From assembly GCA_031400735.1 (NCBI GenBank), contig JANNQM010000066.1:8867-72866 (forward strand): a DNA stretch of 64,000 nt, read 5' to 3'. The translations under genes were made by a program, and so were the position numbers. This DNA is from Gallionellaceae bacterium. Its GTDB lineage: Bacteria; Pseudomonadota; Gammaproteobacteria; Burkholderiales; Gallionellaceae. This document shows, piece after piece, positions 1-58,723 of the stretch (position 1 is the stretch's first letter; each line of letters opens with the position of its first letter). The notes under the pieces are model-generated. The model was not told the DNA's origin, searched no databases, and worked only from the letters and a program-made list of their open reading frames with translations.

Positions 1-39
1 GTGTGACTCCATTGATCATTTACTGTTGGGAGGTGAATA

Positions 40-1261: not shown

Positions 1262-1269
1262 ATTCGCTG

Positions 1270-1623: not shown

Positions 1624-1714
1624 GCTGGTGGTGCGGCACGAACCCCAGCTTTGCCTGATCCGAACATGCTGGGGTTCGCGGCGCTCACCGCCAGCCTACA
1701 ACGAAGGAAATCAC

Positions 1715-2449
1715 ATGACCAAAACCACCCATTTCGGTTTCGAAACCGTCGAAGAAAAAGAAAAAGCCCGGCGCGTCGCCGGTGTGTTCACCTCGGTCGC
1801 CGACAAATACGACATCATGAACGACCTGATGTCAGTCGGCCTGCACCGGCTGTGGAAGCGTTTTGCGGTCAGCGTCAGCGGCGTGCGCGAAGGCCAGCGC
1901 GTGCTGGACGTGGCCGGCGGCTCGGCCGATTTGTCGCGGTTGTTCCTGAAAAAAGTCGGCGTCAGCGGTCAAGTCATCCTGACCGACATCAACAATGCCA
2001 TGCTGCGCACCGGCCGCGACCGGCTGATTGACGAAGGCATCGCCACCCCGGTCGCCCAATGCGATGCCGAACACCTGCCTTTCCCCGATAATCATTTCGA
2101 CTGCGTCAGCATCGCCTTCGGCCTGCGCAACGTCACCCACAAAAATGTCGCGCTGCGCGAAATGCAGCGCGTGCTCAAACCCGGCGGGCGGTTGATCGTG
2201 CTGGAATTTTCCAAAGTCGCCAAGCCGTTGGAAAAAATTTACGATGCTTATTCATTTACGCTGCTGCCAAAAATCGGGCAGCTGATCGCCAAGGATGCCG
2301 ACAGCTATCGCTACCTGGCTGAATCCATTCGCATGCATCCGGGGCAGGAAGAATTAAAGAGCATGATGGAAGTGGCGGGGCTGGGCAGGGTGGAGTATTT
2401 CAACATGACGGGCGGGGTGGTGGCGGTGCACCGGGGGTATAAGCTTTGA
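1715..2449 (+). CDS. ubiE: Ubiquinone/menaquinone biosynthesis C-methyltransferase UbiE
   Basis: [12 protein letters not shown]...[26 protein letters not shown] with SAM motif [13 protein letters not shown] at 1715 chosen; the ORF-track upstream extension from 1499 is non-homologous. Confidence 0.9.
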
Positions 2450-2458
2450 TAGGAGCAA

Positions 2459-2656
2459 ATGATGAACAAAGAACGTAAGCTCGAAGCGGAAATCTTGGCC
2501 TCGTTTGAAAGGGGTGAATGGCAACCTGCGCCAAATGGTAAGAATCCAATCGCGCGCTTTTCAGAAATAGCCTCAACATTCCTAACCAAAATCCAGCCTG
2601 ACAAAATTCGAACTTCTTCTATCCACGCACTAGGCTTTAGGAAAAGGCGTAAGTGA
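2459..2656 (+). pseudogene. Truncated CopG/RHH-type antitoxin-like gene; only the N-terminal half is recognisable
   Basis: N-terminus ...EAEILASFERGEWQPAPNGKN matches the ERGEW-type antitoxin N-terminus. Reading ends after IRTSSIHALGFRKRRK, before the usual ribbon-helix-helix C-terminus. Confidence 0.45.
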
Positions 2657-2688
2657 TTGTAAATGCATTACTGAGAGGTGCTTGATTC

Positions 2689-3465
2689 ATGATGATCCGA
2701 GATTATTTCAATTCGCTTGCAGACGTTCTCGCCGCTGGCAGCAAGTCAGCATCCTTCAGTCATCATCGGCCAGATAGTGGAGCCAACCGCGAAGATTTGC
2801 TTATAAACCTGCTGAATGACCATTTGCCCGATCGCCTGAAAGCATTTGCGGGAGGCAAGATTGTGAATCTTGAAGGAAAGCTTTCAAAACAAATAGACGT
2901 AATAGTGAAAAACGATCTTTTCCCACGATTTGATCAGCACGGCAAGAGTTGCGTCATCACTGAAAGTGTCGCAGGAGTAATTTCGGTAAGGTCACACCTC
3001 GACACGACCGGGCTTATTGAAACCATTGAGAACGTGGCTAGCGTTCCTAGATTCTCTGACGTCACCCTATCACTATCCAATTCATCAATAGTAAGGAATG
3101 GTCTTCAATCAGAGTTTGTAACCAATTGGCCTTTCAGGGCAATCTTTGCTTACGACAGCATTGACTCAGACACTCTTTACAAGCACGCGCTAACGTATTA
3201 CAACGCGCATGCGGCACGCATCGGAGTCTTTCCGGAAATGATTGTTGTGAACAAAAAAATATGTATTAGGTTTTTGCGAAACGGTGGGACACGCAGCGAT
3301 GGCACACCGCTACCAGTTAATTCAATGAACCCAGTATTGCTATCAGATAAGACACAGGGCTATCCGATTGCTGGAATGATAACCATCCTTAATGACTACG
3401 TCGCTTGGATGCACTACATGAAATTCAATTTTTCGCCATACATTGACCGAGCATATTTAACCTAA
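2689..3465 (+). CDS. Hypothetical protein with a DUF6602-like (putative PD-(D/E)xK-like) N-terminal domain
   Basis: 258-aa clean ORF. Pattern SGANREDLLINLLNDHLPDRL...GGKIVNLEGKLSKQIDVIVKN...ESVAGVISVRSHL recalls DUF6602. By eye it is more AT-rich than the flanking genes. Confidence 0.55.
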   Translation: MMIRDYFNSLADVLAAGSKSASFSHHRPDSGANREDLLINLLNDHLPDRLKAFAGGKIVNLEGKLSKQIDVIVKNDLFPRFDQHGKSCVITESVAGVISVRSHLDTTGLIETIENVASVPRFSDVTLSLSNSSIVRNGLQSEFVTNWPFRAIFAYDSIDSDTLYKHALTYYNAHAARIGVFPEMIVVNKKICIRFLRNGGTRSDGTPLPVNSMNPVLLSDKTQGYPIAGMITILNDYVAWMHYMKFNFSPYIDRAYLT

Positions 3466-3537
3466 GGACGGTAGGCTGGACTAAGGAACGAACCCAGCGG
3501 AAATTGGCATTTCTCCCTTATGCCTAAAGTAACCCCC

Positions 3538-3566
3538 TTGTCGCCGCACTACAATGTAGTTATACT
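3538..3566 (+). promoter_or_regulatory. Putative brnTA promoter with overlapping palindromic operator
   Basis: TTGTCG (3538-3543), 17-nt spacer, TATACT (3561-3566). The 13-bp palindrome ACTACAATGTAGT (3548-3560) abuts the -10. The brnT ATG is 6 nt after the -10. Confidence 0.45.
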
Positions 3567-3572
3567 GCGCGC

Positions 3573-3851
3573 ATGAGCACACTTCGCTTTGAATGGGATG
3601 ACCGGAAAGCGGCCGCTAATGCAAAAAAGCATGGCGTGAGATTTGAGGAAGCCAAATCCGTTTTCGTTGACGAACGCGCCAAGCTGATTGACGATCCCGA
3701 CCATTCAGAATCCGAAGACCGCTTCGTTATTCTTGGCCTGAGCAGCGCGATTCGGCTGCTATTGGTTTGTCACTGCTACCGGGAAGGCAATGTCATTCGC
3801 ATTATCTCCGCTCGCAAGGCAACGGCCAAGGAATCCAGAAATTATCCATAG
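3573..3851 (+). CDS. brnT: BrnT-family (DUF497) type II toxin
   Basis: FEWDDRKAAANAKKHGVRFEEAKSVF...RFVILG...IRIISARKATAKE is the canonical BrnT pattern. Confidence 0.85.
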   Translation: MSTLRFEWDDRKAAANAKKHGVRFEEAKSVFVDERAKLIDDPDHSESEDRFVILGLSSAIRLLLVCHCYREGNVIRIISARKATAKESRNYP

Positions 3852-3860
3852 AGGTGTCAT

Positions 3861-4070
3861 ATGCGAAAAGAATACGATTTCTCCGCTGCCAGAAAAAACC
3901 CTTACGCAGCACAGCTAAAAAAACAAATCACCATTCGGCTCGATGAAGAGTCGATCTCATACTTTAAGGCAATTTCCGAGGAGGTTGGTGTTCCGTACCA
4001 AAGTCTGATTAACCTGTATTTACGCGACTGTGCGGCCTCCCATCGCAAGCTTAATCTCAATTGGAAGTAA
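3861..4070 (+). CDS. brnA: BrnA-family antitoxin (CopG/RHH)
   Basis: MRKEYDFSAARKNPYA...ITIRLDEESISYFKAISEEVGVPYQSLINLYLRD. Starts 9 nt after the brnT stop. Confidence 0.85.
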   Translation: MRKEYDFSAARKNPYAAQLKKQITIRLDEESISYFKAISEEVGVPYQSLINLYLRDCAASHRKLNLNWK

Positions 4071-4193
4071 TATTTTTGTTGTCGTAGAAACTAGCCCTGC
4101 TTAAGCAGGGCTTCCCTACCTCGCACACATACCGGTCTGGCACCATCCGCATTATCAGTGTCCGGCGAATGACCCGTATTGAAAGGAAAATAT

Positions 4194-4439
4194 ATGAAGA
4201 AAATTAAAGATGAAATGCGCGTAGAGTACAAATCTTCCGACTTTACAAAACTTGAGCGCGGGAAGTACTTTAAGCAGGTTACCAAGGGCACGAATGTTGT
4301 GTTGCTTGACCCAGCAATAGCCAAGGCCTTTCCCACCTCTGCAGCAGTAAATGAAGCTTTGGGCAATCTACTTACGCTTACCGAACAAACCGTCCGCCTG
4401 ACAGGTCGCAGCAAACGGCCCACCCGTAAACTTGCGTAG
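4194..4439 (+). CDS. Small orphan antitoxin-like protein
   Basis: ATG at 4194 preceded by AGGA. N-terminus MRVEYKSSDFTKLERGKY parallels BrnA MRKEYDFSAARKNPY. No adjacent toxin ORF. Confidence 0.45.
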   Translation: MKKIKDEMRVEYKSSDFTKLERGKYFKQVTKGTNVVLLDPAIAKAFPTSAAVNEALGNLLTLTEQTVRLTGRSKRPTRKLA

Positions 4440-4579
4440 AGTGAATTGACGCCAAGTTAAGCAAGCTGCATGGGGTATCCCCGATGCAAAGTAACTACTG
4501 TGGCGCTTCCCACAGAATGCAACCCCCCGCCAATGCTATACTCCACCCGCTTTGTTTAACGCTAACCATGAGGATTCCC

Positions 4580-5413
4580 ATGAAACGATTTTTGATGTTT
4601 TTGACAATTGCATTAACCAGTTTGAGTTTGCTTGCCACCACAGCAGAGGCCCGGCGTTTCGGCGGGGGCGGCAGTTTTGGCAAGCAGCGTTCGGTGGCAC
4701 CGCAACAACCCCAGAAGACAACGGCTGCACCGGCTCCGGGTGCTACACCGGCACAGCCTGCAGGCAATAGATGGCTTGGGCCATTGGCCGGGTTGGCGAT
4801 TGGGGCGGGCTTGGCCTCGATGTTTGCCGGGGGTGGCTTGGGTGGGGCGATGGGTGGAATTTTGATGGCGCTGCTTGCCGCCGGGCTGGTGATGTTTTTG
4901 ATTGCTAAATTCCGCAAGCCGCAACCTGCGATGCAATATGCCGGGGCGAGCCCTTATGGCAATTCCCAAGCCATACCACAGGCCATACCGCAGTCCATGT
5001 CTGCCAGCCCGCTCGGCGCGGCGCCTGTGGCAAACAACATCCCGCCCGATTTCCCGGTGGAAAGTTTTTTGCGTAGCGCCAAGACTTCGTTCATTCGCCT
5101 GCAGGCTGCGAATGACCGCAAGGATCTGGATGACATTCGCGAATACACGACGCCTGAAATGTTTGCCGAAGTTGCTATGCAATTGCAGGAGCGTGATAAC
5201 TCGCCGCAGAAAACCGATGTCATCACAATCAATGGCGACCTGCTGGAGGTGGTGACCGAAGGGGAATATGCGATTGCCAGTGTGCGCTTCACCGGCCAGC
5301 TGCGTGAGAACAATGCCGCGCCGGAAAGCGTGGATGAAATCTGGCATGTGCAGAAAAATCTGCGCGACGACAAGGCGGTGTGGTTATTGTCAGGGATTCA
5401 GCAAGCTTCTTGA
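4580..5413 (+). CDS. Tim44-like domain membrane protein
   Basis: Signal/TM segment, Gly-rich TM region, and a C-terminal Tim44-like block (REYTTPEMFAEV...WLLSGIQQ). ATG at 4580 with GAGGA upstream. Sits in the usual betaproteobacterial position between ubiE and ubiJ. Confidence 0.8.
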   Translation: MKRFLMFLTIALTSLSLLATTAEARRFGGGGSFGKQRSVAPQQPQKTTAAPAPGATPAQPAGNRWLGPLAGLAIGAGLASMFAGGGLGGAMGGILMALLAAGLVMFLIAKFRKPQPAMQYAGASPYGNSQAIPQAIPQSMSASPLGAAPVANNIPPDFPVESFLRSAKTSFIRLQAANDRKDLDDIREYTTPEMFAEVAMQLQERDNSPQKTDVITINGDLLEVVTEGEYAIASVRFTGQLRENNAAPESVDEIWHVQKNLRDDKAVWLLSGIQQAS

Positions 5414-41855: not shown

Positions 41856-43205
41856 TTAATTACGCAAGGTTTGATTGAGCAGATTGAAATCGGTGTTCAA
41901 TGCTGAATCCAGATTGCGCAAGCCATCTATCGTCTTGCAGGCATACATCACAGTGGTATGGTCCCGCCCGCCAAATGCCGCGCCGATTTCCGGCAGGCTG
42001 AACTGGGTTAGCTCGCGTGCCAGCGTCATCGCAATTTGCCGGGGTCGGGCAATGATGCGCGTTCTTTTTTTGGAAAGCAGGTCAGAAACCTTGATACGGT
42101 AAAAATCCGCCACTGTTTTCTGGATGTTCTCAATCGAAATTTGTTTGTTCTGTGACGCCAATAAGTCCCGTAGCGCTTCTTTGGCCAGCTCTACTGATAT
42201 CGGTCGCTTGTGAAATTTAGAGTAGGCGTCAATGCGTTTTAGCGCGCCTTCCAGTTCGCGAATATTCGAGCGTACGTGCTTGGCAATGAAAAACGCCACA
42301 TCTTCACTGATCGGGTTATTCGATAACACGGCTTTCTGCAACAAAATGGCAACGCGCATTTCCAGGCCGGGCGGCTCTATGGCCACGGTGAGCCCCCAGC
42401 TAAAGCGCGAAGTCAGCCGCGGTGTCATACCGGAAATTTCCTTGGGAAAGGTGTCGCAGGTAATCACCACTTGCTTGTGGCCATCAATCAATGAATTCAA
42501 TGTATAGAAAAATTCTTGCTGGGTGCCCGGCTTGTCGGCAATAAACTGGATGTCATCGATCAATAACAGATCCAATGAATTATAAAATTGCTTGAACTCA
42601 TCAAATTTTTTGGTCTGGAAGGCACGCACGACATCAGAAATATAATTCGTGGCATGCACATAGCAAATTTTGGCATGGCTGTTCTGCTGCTTGATATGAT
42701 TGCCAATAGCCTGAATCAAATGGGTTTTCCCTAATCCCACGCCGCCATAGATGAATAACGGGTTATAGGTAGTGCCGGGCGTTTCAGCAACCTGGATGGC
42801 CGCTGAATGGGCCAGCTGGTTGGCTTTGCCGGTCACAAAATTTTCAAATGACAGCAATGAGTTAAGTTTATTTTGCCCCTTGCTGGTTTTGGCTGGAGGG
42901 GACTCCGTCAATGGCGCGGGCTCGCTGGCCAAGGCAGCTTTTTTTGCCTGTGGCTGGACCGTTTTTTTGCCTATGCGTAACTCAAAACAGGGCGGACCGG
43001 ACAGAAAGGTTTCGGCGCGCTTGGAAATCTCGGGCAGAAAACGTTCTTGAAGAAGCTTTAACGTAAAACTGTTGGGTGCCGTCAGCGTGATCTGGTCGCC
43101 GTTTATTTCGAAGGCCAGTGGCTTAATCCACGAATTGAATTGTTGTGGCGGAAGGCTGCCTTCAAAAAACTGAAGACAGGCATCCCACAGATTTTTATCC
43201 GCCAT
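41856..43205 (-). CDS. dnaA: Chromosomal replication initiator DnaA
   Basis: AAA+ GGVGLGKTHL, and DnaA domain IV (FGGRDHTTVMYA). ATG at 43205 (MADKNLWDACL) preferred over the longer ORF. Confidence 0.95.
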   Translation of the reverse strand: MADKNLWDACLQFFEGSLPPQQFNSWIKPLAFEINGDQITLTAPNSFTLKLLQERFLPEISKRAETFLSGPPCFELRIGKKTVQPQAKKAALASEPAPLTESPPAKTSKGQNKLNSLLSFENFVTGKANQLAHSAAIQVAETPGTTYNPLFIYGGVGLGKTHLIQAIGNHIKQQNSHAKICYVHATNYISDVVRAFQTKKFDEFKQFYNSLDLLLIDDIQFIADKPGTQQEFFYTLNSLIDGHKQVVITCDTFPKEISGMTPRLTSRFSWGLTVAIEPPGLEMRVAILLQKAVLSNNPISEDVAFFIAKHVRSNIRELEGALKRIDAYSKFHKRPISVELAKEALRDLLASQNKQISIENIQKTVADFYRIKVSDLLSKKRTRIIARPRQIAMTLARELTQFSLPEIGAAFGGRDHTTVMYACKTIDGLRNLDSALNTDFNLLNQTLRN

Positions 43206-43261
43206 GTTTTCGGGTGACAGTGCAAAAAATAGAATAGGCATTCTACATGCAAGGTGAAATG

Positions 43262-50570: not shown

Positions 50571-51413
50571 ATGGCAAAACCGAACAAAGGATTGGGACGC
50601 GGGCTGGATGCCTTGTTGTCCGGCAACGTCAAAGAGCAGGACGATGTATTGCGCGACGTTAAAGTCAGCCAGCTCAGGCCGGGCAAATATCAGCCGCGCA
50701 GCCGTATGGATGAAGCATCGCTAAATGAATTGGCGGCGTCAATCAAGGCGCAAGGTGTAATGCAGCCCATATTGGCGCGCGCATTGAACGATGGCAATCT
50801 GGAAATTATCGCCGGGGAACGGCGCTGGCGCGCAGCGCAGATGGCCGGCTTGACCCAGGTGCCGGTACTGGTGCGCAAAGTGGCAGACAATGCCGCACTG
50901 GCCATGGCGCTGATTGAAAATATTCAGCGCGAAGACCTTAGTTCGCTGGAAGAAGCCTACGGCATCCAGCGCCTGATCGATGAATTCAAGATGACCCACC
51001 AGACCGCCGCCGATGCGGTGGGCCGCTCGCGCAGTGCCGCCAGCAATCTGCTGCGCTTGCTCAAACTGCCGCAACCGGTGCAAGCAATGCTGATGAATGA
51101 CCAGCTCGACATGGGCCACGCGCGCGCGCTGTTGGCGCTGGGCGGCGCGCAGCAAATAACCGTGGCCAATAAAATTGCCGCACAAAAACTATCGGTACGC
51201 GAAGCAGAAAAATTAATCCAGCACCTGCTGAACCCGGAAGCCAAACCGAAAAAAGCCAAACCCAACCGCGACATTGTGCATTTGCAGGAAGAGCTGGCAC
51301 AACGCATCGGCACCCAGGTGCAGATCAAACCGGGCAAGAAGGGTGCAGGCAAACTGATTATTGATTACACCAGCCATGATCATCTGGATGAGCTGATTCA
51401 ACGTTTGAAATAA
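50571..51413 (+). CDS. parB: Chromosome partitioning protein ParB (Spo0J)
   Basis: GLGRGLDALL, ParB box IIAGERRWRAA, and an HTH. Confidence 0.93.
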   Translation: MAKPNKGLGRGLDALLSGNVKEQDDVLRDVKVSQLRPGKYQPRSRMDEASLNELAASIKAQGVMQPILARALNDGNLEIIAGERRWRAAQMAGLTQVPVLVRKVADNAALAMALIENIQREDLSSLEEAYGIQRLIDEFKMTHQTAADAVGRSRSAASNLLRLLKLPQPVQAMLMNDQLDMGHARALLALGGAQQITVANKIAAQKLSVREAEKLIQHLLNPEAKPKKAKPNRDIVHLQEELAQRIGTQVQIKPGKKGAGKLIIDYTSHDHLDELIQRLK

Positions 51414-51452: not shown

Positions 51453-51458
51453 TTGGCT

Positions 51459-51636
51459 ATGAACAGCAAGGAGTTCAAGCGCTGGCTGAACGCAACAAGG
51501 GGCAACCTTTCAAGCAGGCAGAGGTTCGCATCTTAAAGTGTACTTGAACGGCAAACAGTCTGTTCTACCCATGCACAACACTGACCTTAAGACGGGCACG
51601 GTCGAAGGCATCAAGAAACAACTTGGATTGAAATAA
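51459..51636 (+). pseudogene. hicA: HicA-family toxin gene with a +1 frameshift
   Basis: MNSKEFKRWLNA in frame 1 stops at 51534. QGATFQAGRGSHLKVYLNGKQSVLPMHNTDLKTGTVEGIKKQLGLK continues in the +1 frame from 51496. Total length is 178 nt (3n+1). Confidence 0.75.
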
Positions 51637-51646
51637 GGAGCGCCCA

Positions 51647-52069
51647 ATGTTTATCTACCCTGTCACCCTCACCGCAGACAAAAAAAACGGCGGATTCGTT
51701 GTTACTTTCACCGACATCCCCGAAGCCATCACCCAAGGCGAAACCAAAGATGAAGCCTTGGCTGCTGCGAAAGATGCGCTGGAATCGGCGCTGGATTTCT
51801 ACTTTGAAGACAAGCGTACCGTGTCCGCACCATCCAAACCCAAGCGCGGCCAGCACCTTATCGAACTTCCGGCCAGCTTGTCAGCCAAGGTGCTGTTGCT
51901 CAACGAAATGATCGCGCAGAATGTGCGCCCCGCCGAGCTTGCGCGCCGCCTCCATACCACTCCGCAAGAGGTCAACCGATTAACCAATGTGCGGCATACC
52001 ACGCGCATAGACGGCATCGCCGCAGCGCTACAAGCTCTGGGCAAGCATCTGGATATGCGCGTGGTATGA
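51647..52069 (+). CDS. hicB: HicB-family antitoxin with C-terminal HTH
   Basis: MFIYPVTLTADKKNGGFVVTFTDIPEAITQGETKDEAL is a HicB N-terminal fold. XRE-like HTH in the C-terminus. GGAG RBS. Confidence 0.85.
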   Translation: MFIYPVTLTADKKNGGFVVTFTDIPEAITQGETKDEALAAAKDALESALDFYFEDKRTVSAPSKPKRGQHLIELPASLSAKVLLLNEMIAQNVRPAELARRLHTTPQEVNRLTNVRHTTRIDGIAAALQALGKHLDMRVV

Positions 52070-52131: not shown

Positions 52132-52515
52132 ATGTTTACAAAAACAACACACCGCATCCTGATAGGCTGGTTGATCCTGGCGCTTTTGCTGGCGCAGGGG
52201 ATGCGGGTATGCATACATGCTTATGGTGCACCGCACATTGCCGACCATGCGCATGAAGTGTCCGCCACGCATCTCGAAAGCGCGTTTAGTATGCTCGACG
52301 ACCACGGCGAGGCGGTGTCGGATACGCACATATCGCTGATCGGCATGCTCAAACATCTGTCAGCCCAGCCGCTGATTGCTGTAGTGCTGCTGCTAACGCT
52401 GATTCTGGTTCTGTTGCGGACCGGCGTTTTGAGGCTGACACAACCACGCGACCCAGTATTTCGTCCGCCCCATGGGCATTACTTTAGCCCACCTCTGCGC
52501 GCTCCGCCGCGCTAA
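52132..52515 (+). CDS. His-rich two-TM small protein (CzcI/DUF2946-like by composition only)
   Basis: N-terminal TM segment, then CIHAYGAPHIADHAHEVSATH...DDHGE..DTH, a second TM, and tail RPPHGHYFSPPLRAPP. First gene of the metal cassette. Confidence 0.5.
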   Translation: MFTKTTHRILIGWLILALLLAQGMRVCIHAYGAPHIADHAHEVSATHLESAFSMLDDHGEAVSDTHISLIGMLKHLSAQPLIAVVLLLTLILVLLRTGVLRLTQPRDPVFRPPHGHYFSPPLRAPPR

Positions 52516-52609
52516 CTACTCCCCGATGTATTGAATCACCCGCGCTTGAAAGTGTGGGTGGCCGTTCGACATTAACGTCGTGCGTATCTGCGCGGCAAGG
52601 AGTAGAAAA

Positions 52610-53899
52610 ATGAAATTCAATAGTGCATTACCCACCGCAGCTGGGTGGGCGTTAGTCATGTTCCTGCTCGGCGCACCGCTGGCCTTGGCCCAGGAAAAAC
52701 CGGTGTGGACGCTTGTGGCCAGCGTGCAACGCGCGCTTGATGTGGCGCCCGAGCTGCGCGCTGCCGAGGCGGAAATTGCCGCGCGCGCGGGAGAATTATC
52801 ACAAGCGGGTGCGTGGCCTAACCCGACCCTGGAATTGCGCGCGGATGAAAAGCTGACGATAGAAAGCGGACGCGGCCGGTTTGGACTTAATCAGCTGGCC
52901 ATCACGCAGCCGATCCCGTTGCGCCGGTTGGCCCCTCAGCGCCGTGCCGCAGAGCTGACTCTGCAAGGCGTGCAGGCGGAACAGCGCTACCAAAATCTGC
53001 AAAGTGAGACCCGCACCGCGCATGCCTACCATGCATTACAACGTGCGACGGAGCGGCAGCAGCGGGCACAGGAACGCCTGGCCTTCGCTGAAAAAATGCA
53101 GCGTGGCAACAAGCAAAAAAAAGATGACCCGCTGGTGCGCTATCTTTCACCATTGGAACGCGCGCGACTCGACGTACTGCGCGAGACTGCGTATCAAGAG
53201 GTAGCCGAAGCCGAGGGAAAATGGAGCGAGGCCGCCGCGCAACTGCGCGCGTTGTTGGCACTAGCGCCCGGCGAGCAGCTTGAAACCTTGCCGTTAGCAC
53301 CGGCCGCTACCCCGCCAACACTCTCAGCACTGCTCGACCGCCTGACCTCGCACCCCGCACTCCAAGCGGCGCAGCATAACCGCGAGGCCAATCAAGCAGG
53401 CGTCGACGTGGCGCGTGCACAACGGCTTGCGGATCCAACCGTAGGCATTTTTCATGAACAGGATGAGCTGGCCGGAGAGCGCCGCATTTACTCGGGGATC
53501 ATGCTTAGCATGCAACTACCGCTGTGGAATAAAAATAATGGCTCAGTCGCGCGTGCGGTTGCCGTTACCAACAAGGCTGACGCTATGCTGGCAACTCAAC
53601 ACCGCGACCTGGAAAGCCGCTTGCGCCAGAATCATCTGCATCTGGGACATCTGATCGAGCAAGCAGAGCATTACCGAACCCGCTTGCTGGTGCCAGCAAA
53701 AAAAGTCCTCGACCTGACGCGCAAAGGGTTTGTCACGGGCGAGCAAAGCGGGCTGGCGCTAGTAGATGCCAGTAACACTTATTTTGAGGCGCAGGCGCAT
53801 TACCTTGATCTGCTGCACGACGCGTGGTTTGAGGCTGCAGAATTGCGGCTAGCTTCCGGCGTTTCGATAATTATCTCTTCGATGGAGACCCAACCATGA
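52610..53899 (+). CDS. TolC-family outer-membrane efflux factor (CzcC/CusC-like)
   Basis: Signal peptide ending in ALAQE and two OEP repeats. ATG at 52610 with an AAGGAG RBS. The stop overlaps the RND start (ATGA). Confidence 0.88.
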   Translation: MKFNSALPTAAGWALVMFLLGAPLALAQEKPVWTLVASVQRALDVAPELRAAEAEIAARAGELSQAGAWPNPTLELRADEKLTIESGRGRFGLNQLAITQPIPLRRLAPQRRAAELTLQGVQAEQRYQNLQSETRTAHAYHALQRATERQQRAQERLAFAEKMQRGNKQKKDDPLVRYLSPLERARLDVLRETAYQEVAEAEGKWSEAAAQLRALLALAPGEQLETLPLAPAATPPTLSALLDRLTSHPALQAAQHNREANQAGVDVARAQRLADPTVGIFHEQDELAGERRIYSGIMLSMQLPLWNKNNGSVARAVAVTNKADAMLATQHRDLESRLRQNHLHLGHLIEQAEHYRTRLLVPAKKVLDLTRKGFVTGEQSGLALVDASNTYFEAQAHYLDLLHDAWFEAAELRLASGVSIIISSMETQP

Positions 53900-56800
53900 T
53901 CGCCGCACTGATACGTTTTTCGCTAATCCAGCGGCTGATGATTTTGCTGCTGGCCGTTGCCGTCATACTAGCTGGACTGTGGGCGTTTCGCGCGCTGCCG
54001 ATCGATGCCTTCCCTGACATTTCCAGCCCGCAAGTCATGGTGGTGGTGAAAGCGCCCGGCATGGCGCCGGAGGAAGTCGAGGCGCGCATCAGCTTTCCGA
54101 TAGAAATGGAAATGCAGGGCCTGCCGCGCCAGAAAATTTTGCGCTCCACCACCAAATATGCGCTGGCCAGCATCATCATAGATTTTGAAGATGGCACCGA
54201 TATTTATTGGGCGCGCGCGCAGGTGGCCGAACGCCTGAATCAGATTTGGGGTGATTTGCCGCAAGGCGTGTCCGGCGGATTGGCGCCGATCACCACCCCG
54301 CTGGGCGAAATTTATATGTACCGCATCGTCGGCGAAGGCTATAGCAATCAGGAGTTGCGCGCCTTGCAGGATTGGACCATACGCCCGCGTCTGCGCACCG
54401 TGGATGGCGCGGCGGATGTCAATTCTCTGGGCGGCGAAGTGCGCGCCTTCGAGGTAATCCCCGACCCGGCACAGCTGGCGGCGCAAGGTTTGGATTTACA
54501 TGACATCGAACAAGCGCTGCAACAAAACAACCGCAATGCAGGCGGCGACCGCATCAACCGCGAGCAGGAAATGTTGCTGGTGCGCACGGTTGGGCAATTG
54601 CGCAACGCCGATGACATCGCCAATATCACCATCACGACGCGCGATGGTGCAGCGATACGTATCAAGGATGTGGCGCGCGTGCGCATAGGCTCGCTCACCC
54701 GTTACGGCGCGGTGACGGCGGACGGCAAAGGCGAAGCGGTGACCGGCTTGGTGTTGTTGCGCAAGGGCGCGAACAGCCGCAGCACGGTAGAAGGCGTCAA
54801 GCGCGAACTGGCGGCACTTGCCCCGGCCCTGCCCAAAGGCGTGACGATTATTCCGTTTTATGACCGCACCGAGTTGGTTAACGAAGCTGTGAGTACAGTG
54901 CAGGTGGCGCTGGGCGAGGCGGTGGTGCTGGTGCTGCTGGTGTTGATCGTGTTGCTCGGCAACCTGCGCGCCGCACTGACGGTGGCTTTGATTCTGCCGC
55001 TGTCGGTGCTGGCTACGTTTATTTTGATGCAGGTGTTTGGTGTGTCGGCCAACTTGATGTCGCTCGGCGGATTGGCTATCGCCATAGGCATTTTGGTGGA
55101 TGCCGCCGTGGTGGTGGTGGAAAACGTCCACACGCAACTGAGCCACGCGCCGCCAGGTGTGAGCCGCTTGCACCTGGTGTATCGCGCCACGCTGGAAGTC
55201 GCCACTCCTGTAATTTCTGGCGTGCTGATTATTATCATGGTGTTCTTGCCGCTGTTCAGCCTGACCGGGTTGGAAGGAAAGATGTTCACGCCTCTTGCCA
55301 TCACCATTTCGTTTGCCTTGCTTAGTTCGCTGGTGCTTTCGCTGACGGCGATTCCGGTGCTGGCCAGTTTTCTGATGCGCGGTGGTGTCCATCAGGACGA
55401 CTGGATACTGACGCGCATCAAACGCATCTACTTGCCGCTGATGAATTGGGCGCTGCGTCATCGTGGCGTTGCGGTGGGCGTTGCATTCATCGCACTGGTG
55501 GGCGCGCTGGCGCTGATTCCATTCATCGGGCGCGAGTTCATGCCGGTGATGGACGAAGGAACGACGGTGATTATTGTGGAGAAATCCTCCAACGTGTCGC
55601 TGGAACATTCGCTGGCTTTGGATGAACCCATACACAAAGCCTGGATGGAACTGCCGCAGGTCACCGGCGTGGTGTCGCGCACCGGCGCGGACGAGCTGCG
55701 TCTGGATCCGATGGGGCTTTATCAGACCGATAATTTTGTGCTGACCAAGCCGCGCAGCGAGTGGGGCATCAGCGTTGAGGAATTCAACCAGCAGCTGCGC
55801 GACAAGCTGGAGCGCTTCAAGGATTTGGAATTCGACATCGCCTTCACCCAGCCGATAGACATGCGCACATCGGAAATGCTGACCGGCGTGCGCGCCGCAA
55901 TGGCGATCAAACTGTTCGGCGACGACCTCGCGCTGCTGGAAGAGAAATCCAAACAGATTGAAGATATTCTCGGTCGCATTCCCGGTGCGGTGGATATTTT
56001 TCGTGGACGGCTGTCGGGGCAAAATTATTTGCGCCTGACTATTCGTCAGCCAGACATCGCCCGATACGGCATCCGCACCGAAGACATCAACCAGATGATA
56101 GAAACTGCGGTCGGCGGTAAAGTGGTGAGCGAGATCATCGAAGGCAATCGCCGCAGCCCGGTGTTGCTGCGCTATCCGGAAAAAGCGCGCGCCTCGCCAA
56201 AAGCACTCGGGCAACTGCTGATCGAAACGCCGGGCGGAGCCAAAGTGCCGCTGGCGCTGCTGGCCGACATCGAAGAGGTGGATGGCCCGGTGCAGATCAC
56301 GCGCGAATCGGCCAAGCGCCAGGTGGTGGTGCAGTCCAACGTCGAGAACCGCGACGTGGTCGGCTTTGTGGACGAAGTGCGCGCCACGATAGAGCGCGAG
56401 GTAGAGTTGCCGCAAGGCTACCACATCACCTACGGCGGCCAGTTTGAAAACGAGCAACGCGCTGCGGCACGTCTGGCGCTGGTCGTGCCAGTGTCCATCG
56501 CGTTAATCTTTGTCATGCTGTTCACCACCTTCCGCTCGTTGCGCCAAGCCGGGTTAATCATCCTCAACATCCCGTTCGCGATGATAGGCGGCGTGGTGAG
56601 TTTGTATTTTTCTGGGCTGTATTTATCAGTCCCCGCCTCGGTCGGTTTCATCACGCTGTTCGGCGTGGCGGTGCTGAATGGCGTGGTGATGGTGACCTAT
56701 TTCAACCAGTTGCGTGCAGCCGGACGCAGCGTACTGCAAGCGGTACAGGAAGGCGCAGAACGCAGGCTGCGTCCGGTGCTGTTGACCGCGCTCATTGCGA

Positions 56801-56991
56801 GTCTTGGATTAGTACCGATGCTACTTGCCACCGGCCCCGGTTCCGAATTGCAGCGCCCCCTTGCGGTAGTCGTGATCGGCGGCTTGTTCACCTCAACGCT
56901 GCTGACACTGGTGCTGCTGCCCACGCTCTACGCCTGGCTCGAAGGTCGCACTGAACAAAAATCACAAACAGGACAGGAGAGCCTCACATGA
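53896..56991 (+). CDS. CusA/CzcA-family heavy-metal-efflux RND transporter
   Basis: 1031 aa with 12 TM helices. N-terminus IRFSLIQR...ALPIDAFPDISSPQV. TM4 reads AIGILVDAAVVVVENVH. Confidence 0.93.
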   Translation: MIAALIRFSLIQRLMILLLAVAVILAGLWAFRALPIDAFPDISSPQVMVVVKAPGMAPEEVEARISFPIEMEMQGLPRQKILRSTTKYALASIIIDFEDGTDIYWARAQVAERLNQIWGDLPQGVSGGLAPITTPLGEIYMYRIVGEGYSNQELRALQDWTIRPRLRTVDGAADVNSLGGEVRAFEVIPDPAQLAAQGLDLHDIEQALQQNNRNAGGDRINREQEMLLVRTVGQLRNADDIANITITTRDGAAIRIKDVARVRIGSLTRYGAVTADGKGEAVTGLVLLRKGANSRSTVEGVKRELAALAPALPKGVTIIPFYDRTELVNEAVSTVQVALGEAVVLVLLVLIVLLGNLRAALTVALILPLSVLATFILMQVFGVSANLMSLGGLAIAIGILVDAAVVVVENVHTQLSHAPPGVSRLHLVYRATLEVATPVISGVLIIIMVFLPLFSLTGLEGKMFTPLAITISFALLSSLVLSLTAIPVLASFLMRGGVHQDDWILTRIKRIYLPLMNWALRHRGVAVGVAFIALVGALALIPFIGREFMPVMDEGTTVIIVEKSSNVSLEHSLALDEPIHKAWMELPQVTGVVSRTGADELRLDPMGLYQTDNFVLTKPRSEWGISVEEFNQQLRDKLERFKDLEFDIAFTQPIDMRTSEMLTGVRAAMAIKLFGDDLALLEEKSKQIEDILGRIPGAVDIFRGRLSGQNYLRLTIRQPDIARYGIRTEDINQMIETAVGGKVVSEIIEGNRRSPVLLRYPEKARASPKALGQLLIETPGGAKVPLALLADIEEVDGPVQITRESAKRQVVVQSNVENRDVVGFVDEVRATIEREVELPQGYHITYGGQFENEQRAAARLALVVPVSIALIFVMLFTTFRSLRQAGLIILNIPFAMIGGVVSLYFSGLYLSVPASVGFITLFGVAVLNGVVMVTYFNQLRAAGRSVLQAVQEGAERRLRPVLLTALIASLGLVPMLLATGPGSELQRPLAVVVIGGLFTSTLLTLVLLPTLYAWLEGRTEQKSQTGQESLT

Positions 56992-57296
56992 AAAATCTAA
57001 CACTAATCGTCCATGCCGATGTCCAGCAGGCGCTGGCCGATGCATTGCGCAGCATCAAGCAAGCGTCCGGTTTTACCTTCACGCCGGTCGAAGGCCACGG
57101 CGCGCAGGATGGCAGTGACCCGACCCTCTCCGCAACAGACAGGGTAGTCGGCTACACGCCACAGGTGCGCGTGGATATTTTGCTGGAAGACGGCGATGTG
57201 GAGGCTGTCTTGCAGAAGTTGCGCACAGCCGACTGTGGATTGGCAGGGCGTGGTATTTACTGGGTTACGCCGCTGGAACATCGGGGGCGGTTGTGA
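56988..57296 (+). CDS. P-II-like (DUF3240-type) small cytoplasmic protein
   Basis: 102 aa. beta-alpha-beta pattern with VEGHG followed by a Gly/Asp/Ser/Thr-rich loop. The ATG overlaps the RND stop (ATGA). GGAG RBS. Confidence 0.65.
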   Translation: MKNLTLIVHADVQQALADALRSIKQASGFTFTPVEGHGAQDGSDPTLSATDRVVGYTPQVRVDILLEDGDVEAVLQKLRTADCGLAGRGIYWVTPLEHRGRL

Positions 57297-57367
57297 AGTG
57301 GGAGGGAGCAATCGCGCTGTACGCACTGCGACCGATCTTTAACGTTTTTATAACCTGAGAGGTGCAC

Positions 57368-58162
57368 ATGATATCAATTACAAAATCCGCCCTGCTGATG
57401 GCATTGGCGCTGCTAGTTCCGGCGCTGGCGTTCGGCCACGGCATGTCCGAGGCGGACAAGCTGGCAATCGTGGCGGGAGGCAACCTGCGTTACCTGTCAC
57501 TGGGTGCCACGCACATGCTGTCCGGTTACGATCACCTGTTGTTCGTGTTCGGTATTGTCTTCCTCCTGAAGACGTTCCGCGAGATCGTAAAATACATCAC
57601 CGCGTTTACGCTCGGGCACAGCGTCACGCTGATCTTCGCGACGTTCAACCACATCCAGATGAATTATCTGCTGATCGACGCCGTCATCGGCCTGAGCGTG
57701 GTGTACATCGCGTTCGCGAACCTGGACGGCTTCCGCCGCTATCTGGGCATCGCGCCGCCCAACCTGCTCGCCATGATCGCGCTGTTCGGGTTGATCCACG
57801 GCTTCGGGCTGTCAACACGGCTGCAGGAACTGCCGCTCAGCGAAACCGACCTGCTGATGAACATCATTTCGTTCAATGTCGGTGTCGAGCTGGGCCAGGT
57901 GCTGGCGCTGTCGGTCATGCTGGCACTGCTCGCGGGCTGGCGTAAAACAAAATCGTTCCTGTCCTTCAGCCGTGTGTCAAACGTCGGCCTGATTTTCGCG
58001 GGCATGCTGCTGTTTCTGATGCAGATGCACGGTTACTCTCACCAAAGCAGCCCGGACGAATTTGGCTTTAGCGCCGATAATCATCTGCACGAACATATCA
58101 AGCTGGATGCCGAACGCGCCGAGGCGCTTCGTTCCGAAGCAATACACGATTCTATTGATTGA
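57368..58162 (+). CDS. HupE/UreJ-like (family 2) membrane protein
   Basis: Signal peptide then GATHMLSGYDHLLFVFG, about 6 TM helices, and a His-rich tail HGYSHQSS...DNHLHEH. ATG at 57368 with a GAGG RBS. Confidence 0.65.
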   Translation: MISITKSALLMALALLVPALAFGHGMSEADKLAIVAGGNLRYLSLGATHMLSGYDHLLFVFGIVFLLKTFREIVKYITAFTLGHSVTLIFATFNHIQMNYLLIDAVIGLSVVYIAFANLDGFRRYLGIAPPNLLAMIALFGLIHGFGLSTRLQELPLSETDLLMNIISFNVGVELGQVLALSVMLALLAGWRKTKSFLSFSRVSNVGLIFAGMLLFLMQMHGYSHQSSPDEFGFSADNHLHEHIKLDAERAEALRSEAIHDSID

Positions 58163-58184
58163 CCAACCCAAAGGAGAAGTAAAT

Positions 58185-58532
58185 ATGCGTAAGATAATTA
58201 TTGCCGTAACGTTGTGTACCCTCAGCCTGATGACCGCCCCCGCTTTTTCTGGAGCCGACCACGAGCATTCCCATGCGCAAGGGCCGATTTCAGAGGAGGT
58301 GGCCAAACAAGAGGCGACCAAACAAGTTAGCGAACTGGTGTCGAAAGGAAAAGTCGACAAGAGTTGGAGCGGGATCAAACCAGCGAAGGCTTACCAGAAG
58401 ACCTTCAAGAAGGGACCGGAATGGGTTGTGGAGTTCGCAAACAGCGCGGCATCGGATAAGGCGAAACAGACGCTCTATCTGTTCTATACCCTGGACGGTC
58501 ACTATATGGCCGCAAATTTTACCGGCAAGTAA
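58185..58532 (+). CDS. Secreted small protein with N-terminal His cluster
   Basis: Signal peptide ...APAFSG, then ADHEHSHAQGPISEE. 115 aa. AAGGAG RBS 8 nt upstream. Confidence 0.55.
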   Translation: MRKIIIAVTLCTLSLMTAPAFSGADHEHSHAQGPISEEVAKQEATKQVSELVSKGKVDKSWSGIKPAKAYQKTFKKGPEWVVEFANSAASDKAKQTLYLFYTLDGHYMAANFTGK

Positions 58533-58587: not shown

Positions 58588-58656
58588 GGGACGCTACCCT
58601 TAATATGAAATTTAAATAAGGGTAGCGTCCCCCCTTTCTTTCTTTTTCTTTTTTCC
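58588..58656 (+). terminator. Long hairpin plus pyrimidine tract closing the metal cassette
   Basis: Perfect 15-bp inverted repeat GGGACGCTACCCTTA (58588-58602) / TAAGGGTAGCGTCCC (58617-58631). It runs into a 29-nt all-C/T tract (58628-58656). Confidence 0.55.
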
Positions 58657-58723
58657 GCGAAAGTATGGTCACCCAAAAAAGGTTAAGTAAGTGCCATTCG
58701 GTAGCGTCCCTTTTATTCGACAT

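What the first reader, a model, noticed from the sequence alone, without database searches (positions are those of the whole stretch)
52132..58532. Metal-type RND pump and outer-membrane factor with no adaptor gene, inside a six-gene His-rich / P-II-like / HupE-like cassette
Six co-oriented, tightly packed genes make up the cassette. They are a His-rich 2-TM protein (52132-52515), a TolC-family OMF (52610-53899), a CusA/CzcA-family RND pump (53896-56991), a 102-aa P-II-like protein (56988-57296), a HupE/UreJ-like membrane protein (57368-58162) and a secreted protein with a DHEHSH N-terminus (58185-58532). A 15-bp-stem hairpin closes the block. The OMF/RND and RND/P-II-like junctions are both ATGA overlaps. 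Characterised HME-RND operons such as czcCBA and cusCFBA carry a membrane-fusion (HlyD-family) adaptor gene next to the pump. Here every plus-strand ORF of 60 aa or more is accounted for and none looks MFP-like. The minus-strand ORFs are antisense artefacts. No sensor or regulator gene is present either. Either the adaptor is supplied in trans, or this is an uncharacterised pump architecture in which the accessory proteins substitute for or regulate it.
Basis: partly seen in the sequence, partly recalled or inferred. Interest (0 to 1): 0.75.

Follow-up and report, generated by a model that had tools for sequence, protein, structure and literature searches.

The report
Metal efflux pump operon missing adaptor
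This is a heavy-metal export pump operon that has cleanly lost the gene for the periplasmic adaptor that every studied pump of this kind needs, yet the adaptor-less form is kept intact in many bacterial phyla and has a remodelled docking tip on its outer-membrane channel.

Summary
Six co-oriented genes lie at 52132-58532. They are a His-rich two-helix membrane protein, a TolC-family channel (OMF), a CusA/CzcA-family RND pump, a P-II-like DUF3240 protein, a HupE_UreJ_2 membrane protein and a secreted DUF6488 protein. There are two ATGA overlaps and a terminator hairpin. No adaptor (MFP) sequence occurs in any frame of the 64 kb window.

Comparative work shows the cassette is a derived form of a widespread seven-gene operon: small protein, OMF, MFP, RND, PII-NG, HupE2, DUF6488. 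All 62 metagenome loci recovered with the cognate MFP have that order, and none of those MFPs is an orphan.

The adaptor-less form is old and recurrent. I found 24 distinct cassettes, in Gallionellales, Gammaproteobacteria, Zetaproteobacteria, Nitrospirae and Planctomycetes. They are under purifying selection, and no replacement gene accompanies them. The accessory proteins also occur in the MFP-bearing operons, so they do not substitute for the adaptor. The P-II-like protein belongs to the published PII-NG group.

One new point: every adaptor-less OMF has lost the conserved tip glycine of its first helical hairpin (TolC V146-G147-L148, the adaptor-docking motif). In its place is an insertion and a conserved VRYL[ST]P motif.

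I could not decide whether an adaptor is borrowed in trans or the pump works without one.

The parts
52132..52515 (+). Small His-rich membrane protein (127 aa). It has an N-terminal hydrophobic helix, a His-rich stretch, a second hydrophobic helix and an invariant C-terminal PPLRAPP motif. It is the first gene of the operon.
   Evidence: ORF. It has no Pfam or NCBIfam family. Homologues sit upstream of the OMF in both MFP-less and MFP-bearing operons, with H29, P120, R123, A124, P125 and P126 invariant. Two of 20 members give weak DUF2946 hits, best E 0.0046. The single-sequence model is three helices with pTM 0.28.
52610..53899 (+). TolC-family outer-membrane factor (429 aa, CzcC-like). Its stop codon overlaps the RND start codon (ATGA).
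   Evidence: Pfam OEP, E 4.7e-25, two repeats. Overlap shown. dN/dS against L001 is 0.14.
53135..53152 (+). Codons for V176-R177-Y178-L-S-P, the remodelled tip of the OMF's first helical hairpin. They replace the conserved (V/A/T)-G-x adaptor-docking motif.
   Evidence: Alignments with TolC, CusC, 33 MFP-bearing and 22 MFP-less OMFs. TolC numbering checked. The role of the TolC VGL element is from PMC5404916.
53896..56991 (+). CusA/CzcA-family heavy-metal RND pump (1031 aa). Its stop codon overlaps the PII-NG start codon (ATGA).
   Evidence: TIGR00914 1058 bits and ACR_tran E 1e-299. Best solved relatives are ZneA 4k0e (E 2.9e-214) and CusA (E 1e-191). Acidic residues E138, D604, D612 and E660 align with ZneA E136, D602, E610 and D658; D655 lies one alignment column before ZneA D654 (aligned to I653). 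The CusA methionine triad is absent. Overlap shown.
56988..57296 (+). P-II-like protein of the PII-NG / DUF3240 group (102 aa, no signal peptide).
   Evidence: Pfam DUF3240 and P-II are both above cut-off. It matches solved P-II proteins down to E 1.1e-9. It follows the RND in all complete loci of the clade. Literature.
57368..58162 (+). HupE_UreJ_2 family membrane protein (264 aa from the ATG, 266 aa from the GTG at 57362) with a His-rich C-terminal tail.
   Evidence: Pfam PF13795, E 2.9e-52. The same gene follows PII-NG in MFP-less and MFP-bearing operons.
58185..58532 (+). Secreted DUF6488 protein (115 aa). The His-rich stretch DHEHSH follows the signal peptide.
   Evidence: Pfam PF20098, E 5.6e-25. 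The model is one helix plus a four-stranded sheet, mean pLDDT 67. It has no significant PDB fold match.
58588..58660 (+). Intrinsic-terminator-like hairpin (15-bp stem, 14-nt loop) followed by a T-rich run. It closes the operon.
   Evidence: Sequence. Fold: no shuffle folds as well, z = -3.6.

Best explanation
The block is a functional heavy-metal efflux operon of the PII-NG-linked branch of the CusA/CzcA (HME-RND) family.

Its ancestral form has seven genes: small His-rich membrane protein, CzcC-like OMF, CusB/CzcB-type MFP, RND, PII-NG, HupE_UreJ_2 and DUF6488. In the lineage found here the MFP gene was excised exactly. The OMF stop codon now overlaps the RND start codon.

Shown:
- The adaptor-less form is old, has spread across phyla and is under purifying selection.
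- The RND keeps a ZneA-like carboxylate cluster and a D-x6-E motif in TM4.
- The OMF has lost the tip glycine of its first hairpin.

Inferred:
- The RND trimer exports a divalent transition metal (of the Zn/Co/Ni kind) by proton antiport.
- The His-rich small protein and DUF6488 bind metal in the periplasm.
- HupE_UreJ_2 moves metal across the inner membrane.
- The cytoplasmic PII-NG trimer binds the cytoplasmic face of the RND trimer and gates it, as GlnK gates AmtB.
- The pump still delivers metal to its OMF through an adaptor encoded elsewhere in the genome. This would be a non-cognate MFP from another RND system, and the OMF tip has adapted to it.
For: Identity and ancestry:
- All 62 metagenome loci found with the L026-type MFP read (small)-OMF-MFP-RND-PII-NG(-HupE2-DUF6488).
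- Pfam confirms HlyD_D23 for those MFPs.
- In NJ trees the basal relatives L045 and L048 carry an MFP.

Functionality of the MFP-less form:
- There are 24 distinct intact cassettes.
- dN/dS is 0.03-0.24 for the six window genes against L001.
- OMF and PII-NG co-diverge with the RND at the same rate as in MFP-bearing operons. For example, at 80-85% RND identity the OMFs are 56% identical in MFP-less pairs and 57% in MFP-bearing pairs.

Adaptor in trans:
- All characterised tripartite pumps need a PAP (review PMC4446572).
- The RND shows no group-specific indel. It has only three fixed differences, and their polarity is mixed. Its adaptor-binding surface therefore shows no sign of being given up.
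- The OMF keeps its second tip motif (V-T-G-E, equivalent to TolC S-V-G-T).
- Four MFP-less loci have an MFP gene within 10 kb: L015 (a solo divergent gene) and L029, L032 and L044 (second complete systems).
- The sister branch (RND 51-57% identical) is MFP-RND-PII-NG, with an OMF-like ORF next to the MFP in only 3 of the 58 loci (L048, L081, L089). Components used in trans are therefore normal in this family.

Metal type:
- ZneA is the best solved relative.
- Acidic residues align with ZneA E136, D602, E610 and D658, and D655 lies one column from ZneA D654.
- The CusA methionine triad is replaced by I, Y and M.
- A Geobacter PII-NG-czcCBA operon is induced by Co(II) (PMC7726332).
Against: - No MFP lies in the 64 kb window. 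The rest of the genome could not be read, so the trans adaptor is assumed, not seen.
- The cognate MFP family was never found as an orphan (0 of 62 loci).
- The cassette moves between phyla without an MFP. It has different flanks in every genome and lies next to Tn7 TnsA-like genes in L005, L008, L009 and L010. A pump that depends on a specific partner would often arrive useless.
- The adaptor-docking glycine of OMF repeat 1 is replaced in all 22 MFP-less OMFs by a conserved new motif. This fits a changed docking mode at least as well as it fits a new adaptor.
- The MFP beside L015 predates the cassette. L021 has the same MFP in the same neighbourhood without the cassette.
- The metal specificity and the PII-NG mechanism rest on analogy only.
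Confidence: 0.42

Rival explanations
1. Adaptor-free pump. After the MFP was lost, the OMF and RND couple directly, or the OMF gates itself. The remodelled first-hairpin tip (insertion plus VRYL[ST]P) docks on the RND docking domain, or holds the channel in a state that needs no adaptor to open it. This would be a two-component envelope-spanning RND system.
For: - The excision is exact and OMF-RND translational coupling is conserved.
- The MFP-less unit spreads across phyla as a self-contained cassette.
- The cognate MFP is never an orphan.
- No gene family is enriched beside MFP-less cassettes.
- The tip glycine that contacts the adaptor in TolC (PMC5404916) is replaced by a conserved new motif in 22 of 22 MFP-less OMFs and in 0 of 33 MFP-bearing OMFs. 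TolC, CusC and the basal L045 all keep the glycine.
- The OMF remains under purifying selection.
- The adaptors of metal pumps have short hairpins, so the OMF and RND already lie close together (PMC4446572).
Against: - No tripartite-type RND pump is known to work without a PAP.
- The RND has no insertion and no clearly derived change that would create a new docking surface.
- Neither the OMF nor the RND is longer than in MFP-bearing relatives.
- The second OMF tip keeps the canonical motif.
- Nothing was tested structurally, because no multimer prediction was available.
Confidence: 0.3
2. Uncoupled components. The RND, with PII-NG, works alone in the inner membrane. It moves metal from the cytoplasm or membrane into the periplasm. 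The co-expressed OMF acts as a separate outer-membrane exit or serves other pumps.
For: - L160 keeps an intact RND and PII-NG beside fragmented OMF and MFP genes. The RND-PII-NG pair can therefore outlive its partners.
- The sister branch keeps MFP-RND-PII-NG, mostly with no adjacent OMF.
- PII-NG is cytoplasmic, which points to control from the cytoplasmic side.
Against: - The OMF and RND genes overlap in every MFP-less cassette. The OMF evolves under the same constraint, and co-diverges with the RND, as in complete pumps.
- A closed TolC-type channel needs a partner to open it.
- The periplasmic carboxylate site is conserved. This fits capture of metal from the periplasm and expulsion through a channel.
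Confidence: 0.13
3. Decaying remnant. The cassette is a disabled operon on its way to loss after an accidental deletion of the MFP gene.
For: - An essential component is missing.
- L160 shows that decay does occur in this family.
Against: - There are 24 diverged cassettes with all genes intact.
- dN/dS is 0.03-0.24.
- A tandem duplication of the MFP-less unit exists in L028.
- The new OMF tip motif is conserved.
Confidence: 0.03

Closest known systems
czcCBA / zneCBA-type HME-RND efflux systems (CzcA, ZneA of Cupriavidus metallidurans)
   Same: - A CzcC-like OMF gene comes first and a CusA/CzcA-family RND follows.
- ZneA is the best solved relative (E 2.9e-214).
- Acidic residues align with the ZneA residues I recall as the proximal zinc site.
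- A small protein is encoded upstream of the OMF, as czcI is in czc (from memory).
   Different: - There is no czcB/zneB adaptor gene.
- The TM4 motif is A-x5-D-x6-E (AIGILVDAAVVVVEN), as in CusA. It is not the DFG-DGA-VEN motif of CzcA and ZneA.
- There is no two-component or ECF regulator.
- PII-NG, HupE_UreJ_2 and DUF6488 genes are attached.
PII-NG / PII-New group-linked czc operons (e.g. Geobacter sulfurreducens GSU2134-2137)
   Same: A P-II-like DUF3240 protein is encoded next to a CzcA-type pump. This linkage defines the group (PMC7726332 and PMC11617674).
   Different: - The Geobacter operon has czcB.
- The window's clade places PII-NG directly after the RND with an ATGA overlap.
- In this sub-clade the MFP is missing.
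cusCFBA of Escherichia coli
   Same: - The gene order starts with the OMF.
- The RND is 35% identical to CusA and has the same TM4 motif type.
- A small periplasmic metal-binding protein is encoded in the operon.
   Different: - The CusA methionine triad M573/M623/M672 reads I/Y/M here.
- There is no CusB.
- DUF6488 and the small protein are not CusF homologues.
AcrD of E. coli (an RND pump without its own adaptor gene, served by AcrA; from memory, not checked in a paper here)
   Same: An RND gene with no cis-encoded MFP that depends on an adaptor from another operon. This is the precedent for the 'in trans' reading.
   Different: - acrD stands alone and uses the shared TolC.
- Here an OMF is translationally coupled to the RND and carries a changed adaptor-docking tip.
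GlnK-AmtB
   Same: A trimeric P-II-family protein is encoded directly after, and co-translated with, a trimeric membrane transporter. This is the model for how PII-NG may act.
   Different: - The transporter is an RND pump, not an ammonium channel.
- T-loop Tyr51 is absent, and B-loop Lys90 of the ATP site is replaced (alignment).
- No interaction has been shown.

Membership tests
HME-RND (CusA/CzcA family, TIGR00914) | Whole-protein score above the curated cut-off of the family model | tested here: met
   1058.3 bits against a cut-off of 701.45, full length 1-1026.
HME-RND (CusA/CzcA family, TIGR00914) | Charged residues in TM4 for proton coupling (D and E of the VD..(V/I)EN motif) | tested here: met
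   LVD402AAVVVVE409N is invariant in five orthologues and aligns with the CusA and ZneA motif. The first Asp of the CzcA-type DFG is absent, as in CusA.
Tripartite RND efflux system (OMF + MFP + RND encoded together) | Outer-membrane factor gene | tested here: met
   OEP, two repeats, E 4.7e-25.
Tripartite RND efflux system (OMF + MFP + RND encoded together) | Membrane-fusion / periplasmic adaptor gene (HlyD_D23 family) | tested here: not met
   None in the cassette or anywhere in the window in six frames. The same HMM finds the MFP in 62 of 62 related operons.
Tripartite RND efflux system (OMF + MFP + RND encoded together) | An adaptor encoded elsewhere in the genome | not testable with these tools
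   Only the 64 kb window is available. The source contig could not be retrieved.
TolC-family OMF | Conserved Val-Gly-Leu/Thr-type tip element in both helical hairpins (the adaptor-docking site) | tested here: not met
   Repeat 2 has V-T-G377-E, aligned with TolC S363-V-G365-T. Repeat 1 has V176-R177-Y178, aligned with TolC V146-G147-L148. The glycine is lost and 3-4 residues are inserted.
PII-NG / DUF3240 | Match to PF11582 above the gathering score, and genetic linkage to a heavy-metal RND pump | tested here: met
   51.6 bits against a cut-off of 21. The gene overlaps the RND stop codon. The linkage holds in all complete loci.
Canonical P-II (GlnB/GlnK) | Score above the equivalog cut-off, T-loop Tyr51 and B-loop Lys90 | tested here: not met
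   NCBIfam P-II equivalogs give 27-30 bits against cut-offs of 181-202. In the alignment to 2eg1, the Tyr51 position is Leu and the Lys90 position is Ile.
HupE_UreJ_2 (PF13795) | Match above the gathering score | tested here: met
   176.9 bits against a cut-off of 24.5. Transport activity and metal are untested.
DUF2946 (candidate family for the small His-rich protein) | Match to PF11162 | tested here: inconclusive
   Only 2 of 20 family members hit, best E 0.0046. The window's own protein does not hit.

The most novel reading that the evidence does not exclude
A two-component, adaptor-free RND efflux machine. In this clade the outer-membrane channel has replaced its adaptor-docking tip with a new conserved motif (VRYL[ST]P plus an insertion). 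It either couples directly to the RND pump or opens without a periplasmic adaptor. The unit works on its own and spreads between phyla as a self-sufficient metal-resistance cassette, under the control of a P-II-like protein.
Probability: 0.3. Interest if true: 0.85.

Novelty: new variant of a known kind. Interest (0 to 1): 0.62.

Why it matters
Every characterised envelope-spanning RND pump needs a periplasmic adaptor to bridge pump and channel and to open the channel.

This lineage, conserved and spread across phyla, has deleted the adaptor gene. It has kept pump and channel genes fused by translational coupling and has rewritten the channel's adaptor-docking tip.

- If an adaptor is borrowed, the clade is a natural experiment in adaptor promiscuity and in how OMF tips set partner specificity.
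- If none is used, it overturns the rule that the adaptor is indispensable, and it gives a minimal pump for structural work.

The operon also offers a clean system for finding out what the PII-NG proteins do. They have been linked to metal pumps since 2009, and I know of no tested function. Many carriers are iron-oxidisers and sediment or groundwater bacteria, where metal export is ecologically relevant.

Tried and rejected
1. An MFP elsewhere in the window. Pfam on 20 further ORFs, which include every ORF of 285-560 aa, and a six-frame HMM and tblastn search found none.

2. Retrieving the rest of the source contig. The window's own proteins are not on record in retrievable form.

3. A plasmid-borne annotated copy. 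tblastn of the P-II-like protein against PLSDB found no match.

4. Scanning genomes with alignments of the P-II-like protein. The RND alignment was used instead.

5. The divergent MFP beside the cassette in L015 as proof of a cognate adaptor. Rejected: L021 has the same MFP in the same neighbourhood without the cassette. Its next relatives are AcrA-like and only about 41% identical.

6. A replacement gene near MFP-less cassettes. Clustering of 800 flanking ORFs gave no family in more than 6 of 22 loci.

7. One of the small proteins being adaptor-like.
   - DUF6488 models as one helix plus four strands and has no PDB match.
   - The 127-aa protein models as three helices.
   - Both models are single-sequence and of modest confidence.
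   - Size alone makes an adaptor role unlikely. The 127-aa protein exposes only about 55 residues between its two hydrophobic helices, and mature DUF6488 is about 90 residues. The MFPs found here are 357-400 aa.

8. Relaxed constraint on the RND periplasmic surface in MFP-less members. Entropy profiles show excess variation at window residues about 541-600 and 661-800. The MFP-less set is more diverged overall (69% against 82% mean identity), so this was judged uninformative.

9. RND fixed differences as a signature of lost adaptor binding. Three sites (183, 265, 724) map to the docking subdomains by AcrB numbering. Their polarity is mixed, and at position 265 it is the MFP-bearing clade that is derived.

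10. A CusA-type Cu(I) pump. The methionine triad is absent.

11. Literature on adaptor-less czc or RND operons. Three phrase searches returned nothing relevant.


Full report
**The observation.**
- Pfam and NCBIfam give OEP for 52610-53899 and ACR_tran for 53896-56991. The RND scores 1058 bits on the CusA/CzcA model TIGR00914.
- 56988-57296 matches DUF3240 and P-II, 57362/57368-58162 matches HupE_UreJ_2, and 58185-58532 matches DUF6488.
- The 127-aa protein at 52132-52515 matches nothing.
- The OMF/RND and RND/P-II-like junctions are ATGA overlaps.
- The 15-bp hairpin at 58588-58631 is followed by a T-rich run and folds better than any of 200 shuffles.
- The window is a chromosomal origin region: dnaA, dnaN, yidC, mnmE, mnmG, rsmG, parA and parB.
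- The cassette has 58-59% G+C. The stretch upstream has 54-55% and the stretch downstream 50-53%.

**Is the adaptor really absent?** Yes, within the window.
- None of the six proteins is an MFP, and none of 20 further ORFs tested with Pfam is one. Those 20 include every ORF of 285-560 aa.
- I built an HMM from 121 MFPs and ran it with all filters off against every stop-to-stop segment of at least 30 aa in six frames. The best hit was E = 0.39.
- tblastn with about 90 MFPs from related loci gave only chance matches.
- The OMF stop codon overlaps the RND start codon, so there is no room for a remnant.

**What the cassette derives from.** I scanned one genome per species with an alignment of the RND and annotated the 80 best loci with my own HMMs.
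- Among the 22 loci whose RND is 63-84% identical to the window's, 19 read OMF-RND-PII-NG with no MFP. L028 carries two such units in tandem.
- Three loci (L026, L030, L045) read OMF-MFP-RND-PII-NG. L026 and L045 continue with HupE_UreJ_2, and L045 with DUF6488 as well.
- Pfam confirms that these MFPs are HlyD_D23 proteins.
- The 58 more distant loci (RND 51-57% identical) read MFP-RND, often followed by a DUF3240 gene. Only three of them (L048, L081, L089) have an OMF-like ORF directly upstream of the MFP. They include cultured Methylotenera, Rhodanobacter, Polaromonas, Zoogloea and Guyparkeria.
- The L026-type MFP has at least 120 database clusters that are 61-100% identical to it.
- A metagenome scan with that MFP returned 62 loci. 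In every locus the MFP abuts the RND, and wherever the contig extends upstream it sits between the OMF and the RND. The small His-rich protein lies upstream, PII-NG follows, and HupE2 and DUF6488 often come after. None of these MFPs is an orphan.

The window's six genes are therefore a conserved seven-gene operon minus its MFP. The four accessory genes belong to the ancestral operon and cannot be substitutes for the adaptor.

**The adaptor-less form is old, mobile and functional.**
- With the loci found through the P-II-like protein, there are 24 distinct MFP-less cassettes.
- They come from Gallionellales, Sideroxydans, several gammaproteobacterial lineages, Methylomonas, Zetaproteobacteria, Nitrospirae, Planctomycetales and 'Muproteobacteria'. 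The flanks differ in each.
- In L005, L008, L009 and L010 the cassette lies beside Tn7 TnsA-like genes, and the related loci L005-L010 carry a metal P-type ATPase and/or an OprB porin gene downstream.
- All genes are intact. Against L001, dN/dS for the six window genes is 0.03-0.24.
- The OMF co-diverges with the RND at the same rate in MFP-less and MFP-bearing operons. At 75-80% RND identity the OMFs are 52% and 47% identical. At 80-85% they are 56% and 57%. PII-NG behaves the same way.
- Synonymous divergence between the window and L001 is mosaic: small protein 0.81, OMF 1.25, RND 0.38, PII-NG 0.39, HupE2 0.19, DUF6488 0.11. This indicates recombination inside the cassette rather than relaxed selection.
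- In NJ trees the MFP-bearing L045 and L048 are basal. The MFP-bearing marine clade and the MFP-less lineages separate only on short internodes, so the number of losses is unresolved.
- The shared derived OMF motif described next argues for a single loss.

**A correlated change in the channel.** I compared 22 MFP-less with 33 MFP-bearing OMFs.
- The only group-specific features in the helical hairpins cluster at window OMF residues 171-178. Smaller group differences lie after residue 104 and at the extreme C-terminus.
- MFP-bearing OMFs read ...RR-EQAGELSxLERLR.... MFP-less OMFs carry a 3-4 residue insertion and read ...D(P/R)LVRYL(S/T)PLER....
- Aligned with E. coli TolC and CusC, window V176-R177-Y178 falls on TolC V146-G147-L148. 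Numbering was checked.
- The basal L045, CusC and TolC all keep the glycine, so the MFP-less state is the derived one.
- The Val-Gly-Leu/Thr element at the TolC hairpin tips is the site of tip-to-tip contact with the adaptor hairpin. In the AcrAB-TolC cryo-EM structure, G365, N145 and T366 contact AcrA (PMC5404916; reviews).
- The second tip, window V-T-G377-E, is unchanged in both groups.
- The RND shows no group-specific indel. It has three fixed differences (183, 265, 724) of mixed polarity.

Loss of the adaptor gene thus goes with remodelling of one of the two adaptor-docking tips of the channel, while the pump itself is unchanged.

**No replacement.**
- Clustering 800 flanking ORFs found no family present in more than 6 of 22 MFP-less loci. 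The commonest family has a median length of about 720 aa, the size of the P-type ATPases called next to several of these cassettes.
- DUF6488 models as one helix and a four-stranded sheet (pLDDT 67) and has no significant PDB neighbour.
- The 127-aa protein models as three helices (pTM 0.28).
- Both models are single-sequence and weak. Together with the proteins' small size they give no support for an adaptor-like role.
- The small protein family has an invariant C-terminal PPLRAPP motif and a conserved LHxH after the first helix. It touches DUF2946 only weakly.

**The one adjacent MFP.**
- L015 has RND 74% identical to the window's and a solo MFP divergent from the cassette.
- In L021 the same MFP (78% identical) sits in the same neighbourhood (FTR1, FeoB, FeoA/DtxR, TPR genes) without the cassette.
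- Its other relatives are AcrA-like and about 41% identical.
- The cassette therefore landed next to a pre-existing orphan MFP. This could be coincidence or recruitment.

**What is known.**
- P-II-like proteins encoded beside heavy-metal RND pumps are the PII-NG or PII-New group of Sant'Anna et al. 2009, as cited in PMC7726332 and PMC11617674.
- In Geobacter sulfurreducens, GSU2134 (PII-NG) is co-regulated with czcCBA under Co(II) stress and Fur control, and a metal-sensing role has been suggested there.
- The window's protein matches solved P-II proteins (E 1.1e-9). It lacks T-loop Tyr51 and B-loop Lys90 and falls far below the GlnB/GlnK equivalog cut-offs.
- The family is small. Only 62 clusters at 50% identity reach E <= 1e-10 among 1.8 billion representatives.
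- I found no paper describing an adaptor-less OMF-RND metal operon. The held library is incomplete.

**Likely working.**
- The RND is closest to ZneA. Acidic residues E138, D604, D612 and E660 align with ZneA E136, D602, E610 and D658, and D655 lies one column before ZneA D654. That these ZneA residues form the proximal zinc site is from my memory of Pak et al. 2013.
- The CusA methionine triad is absent.
- The TM4 motif is of the A-x5-D-x6-E type.
- With three His-rich accessory proteins and a HupE-type membrane protein, a divalent metal of the Zn/Co/Ni kind is the best guess. The metal is not shown.
- I infer that PII-NG, a cytoplasmic protein translationally coupled to a trimeric transporter, acts on the RND as GlnK acts on AmtB.

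**How metal reaches the channel is the open point.**

For a borrowed adaptor:
- Known pumps universally need a PAP.
- The RND is unchanged.
- The second OMF tip is retained.
- The OMF is under continued selection.
- MFP genes lie within 10 kb in four MFP-less loci.
- Components are routinely used in trans in the sister branch.

For an adaptor-free pump:
- The cassette moves between phyla without its MFP.
- The cognate MFP is never an orphan.
- The excision is exact and OMF-RND coupling is conserved.
- The adaptor-docking glycine is replaced by a conserved new motif.

My estimates are 0.42 for a borrowed adaptor, 0.30 for an adaptor-free pump, 0.13 for uncoupled components and 0.03 for a decaying remnant.

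**Verdict.** The thing is a new, widespread variant of a known kind of system, not an artefact and not a recent accident. The remodelled channel tip makes the adaptor question directly testable.

Noticed in passing
window 51453-51636 (+), upstream of 51647-52069: The hicA toxin gene of a hicAB pair appears to be broken into two fragments, of 27 aa (MAMNSKEFKRWLNA...) and 32 aa (MYLNGKQSVLPMH...GIKKQLGLK). The HicB-like antitoxin gene that follows is intact.
   Followed up: partly
window 58588-58598, 58621-58631, 58700-58710: The arm of the terminator hairpin (GGTAGCGTCCC) occurs a third time, 70 bp downstream. Three copies were reached in only 3 of 100 shuffles, so this may be a small repeated element.
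   Followed up: partly
L028 2204-6893 and 8700-15242: A Nitrospiraceae MAG carries two adaptor-less OMF-RND-PII-NG units in tandem. The second is followed by HupE_UreJ_2 and DUF6488.
   Followed up: partly
L160 9383-14504: In a member of the MFP-bearing clade, the OMF and MFP genes are broken into several short ORFs while the RND (1033 aa) and PII-NG are intact. This may be a snapshot of partner loss.
   Followed up: partly
L046-L103 (58 loci, RND 51-57% identical): The sister branch reads MFP-RND, often with a DUF3240 gene. Only L048, L081 and L089 have an OMF-like ORF directly upstream of the MFP. This is the mirror image of the window's OMF-RND without an MFP. Both types occur in Gallionellaceae, so complementation between them is conceivable but was not tested.
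   Followed up: partly
L015 3846-4994 (-) and L021 10001-11074: An orphan MFP gene lies in a conserved FTR1-FeoB-FeoA/DtxR neighbourhood of Nitrospirae-like MAGs. In L015 the adaptor-less cassette is inserted right beside it.
   Followed up: partly
L005, L008, L009, L010 positions 1-4800; L005-L010 downstream of 10309 (L006: downstream of 6700): The adaptor-less cassette lies next to Tn7 TnsA-like and transposase-like genes in L005, L008, L009 and L010. Across the related loci L005-L010 it is followed by two unannotated proteins (141 and about 268 aa), a heavy-metal P-type ATPase and/or an OprB porin gene. The context looks like a mobile metal-resistance island.
   Followed up: no
window 52132-58532 compared with L001 5129-11574: Synonymous divergence is mosaic along the cassette: small protein 0.81, OMF 1.25, RND 0.38, PII-NG 0.39, HupE2 0.19, DUF6488 0.11. 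This points to recombination with a breakpoint near the OMF/RND junction.
   Followed up: partly
L026 13398-14609, L108 13432-14616 compared with window 57368-58162: HupE_UreJ_2 proteins of the marine MFP-bearing operons are about 390-405 aa, against 264 aa here. The extra part lies after the Pfam domain and is unannotated.
   Followed up: no
window 41856-43241 (-) to 50571-51413 (+): The cassette sits about 9 kb from dnaA, directly after parB and the hicAB remnant, and has higher G+C than its flanks. It looks like an island inserted in the origin-proximal region.
   Followed up: no
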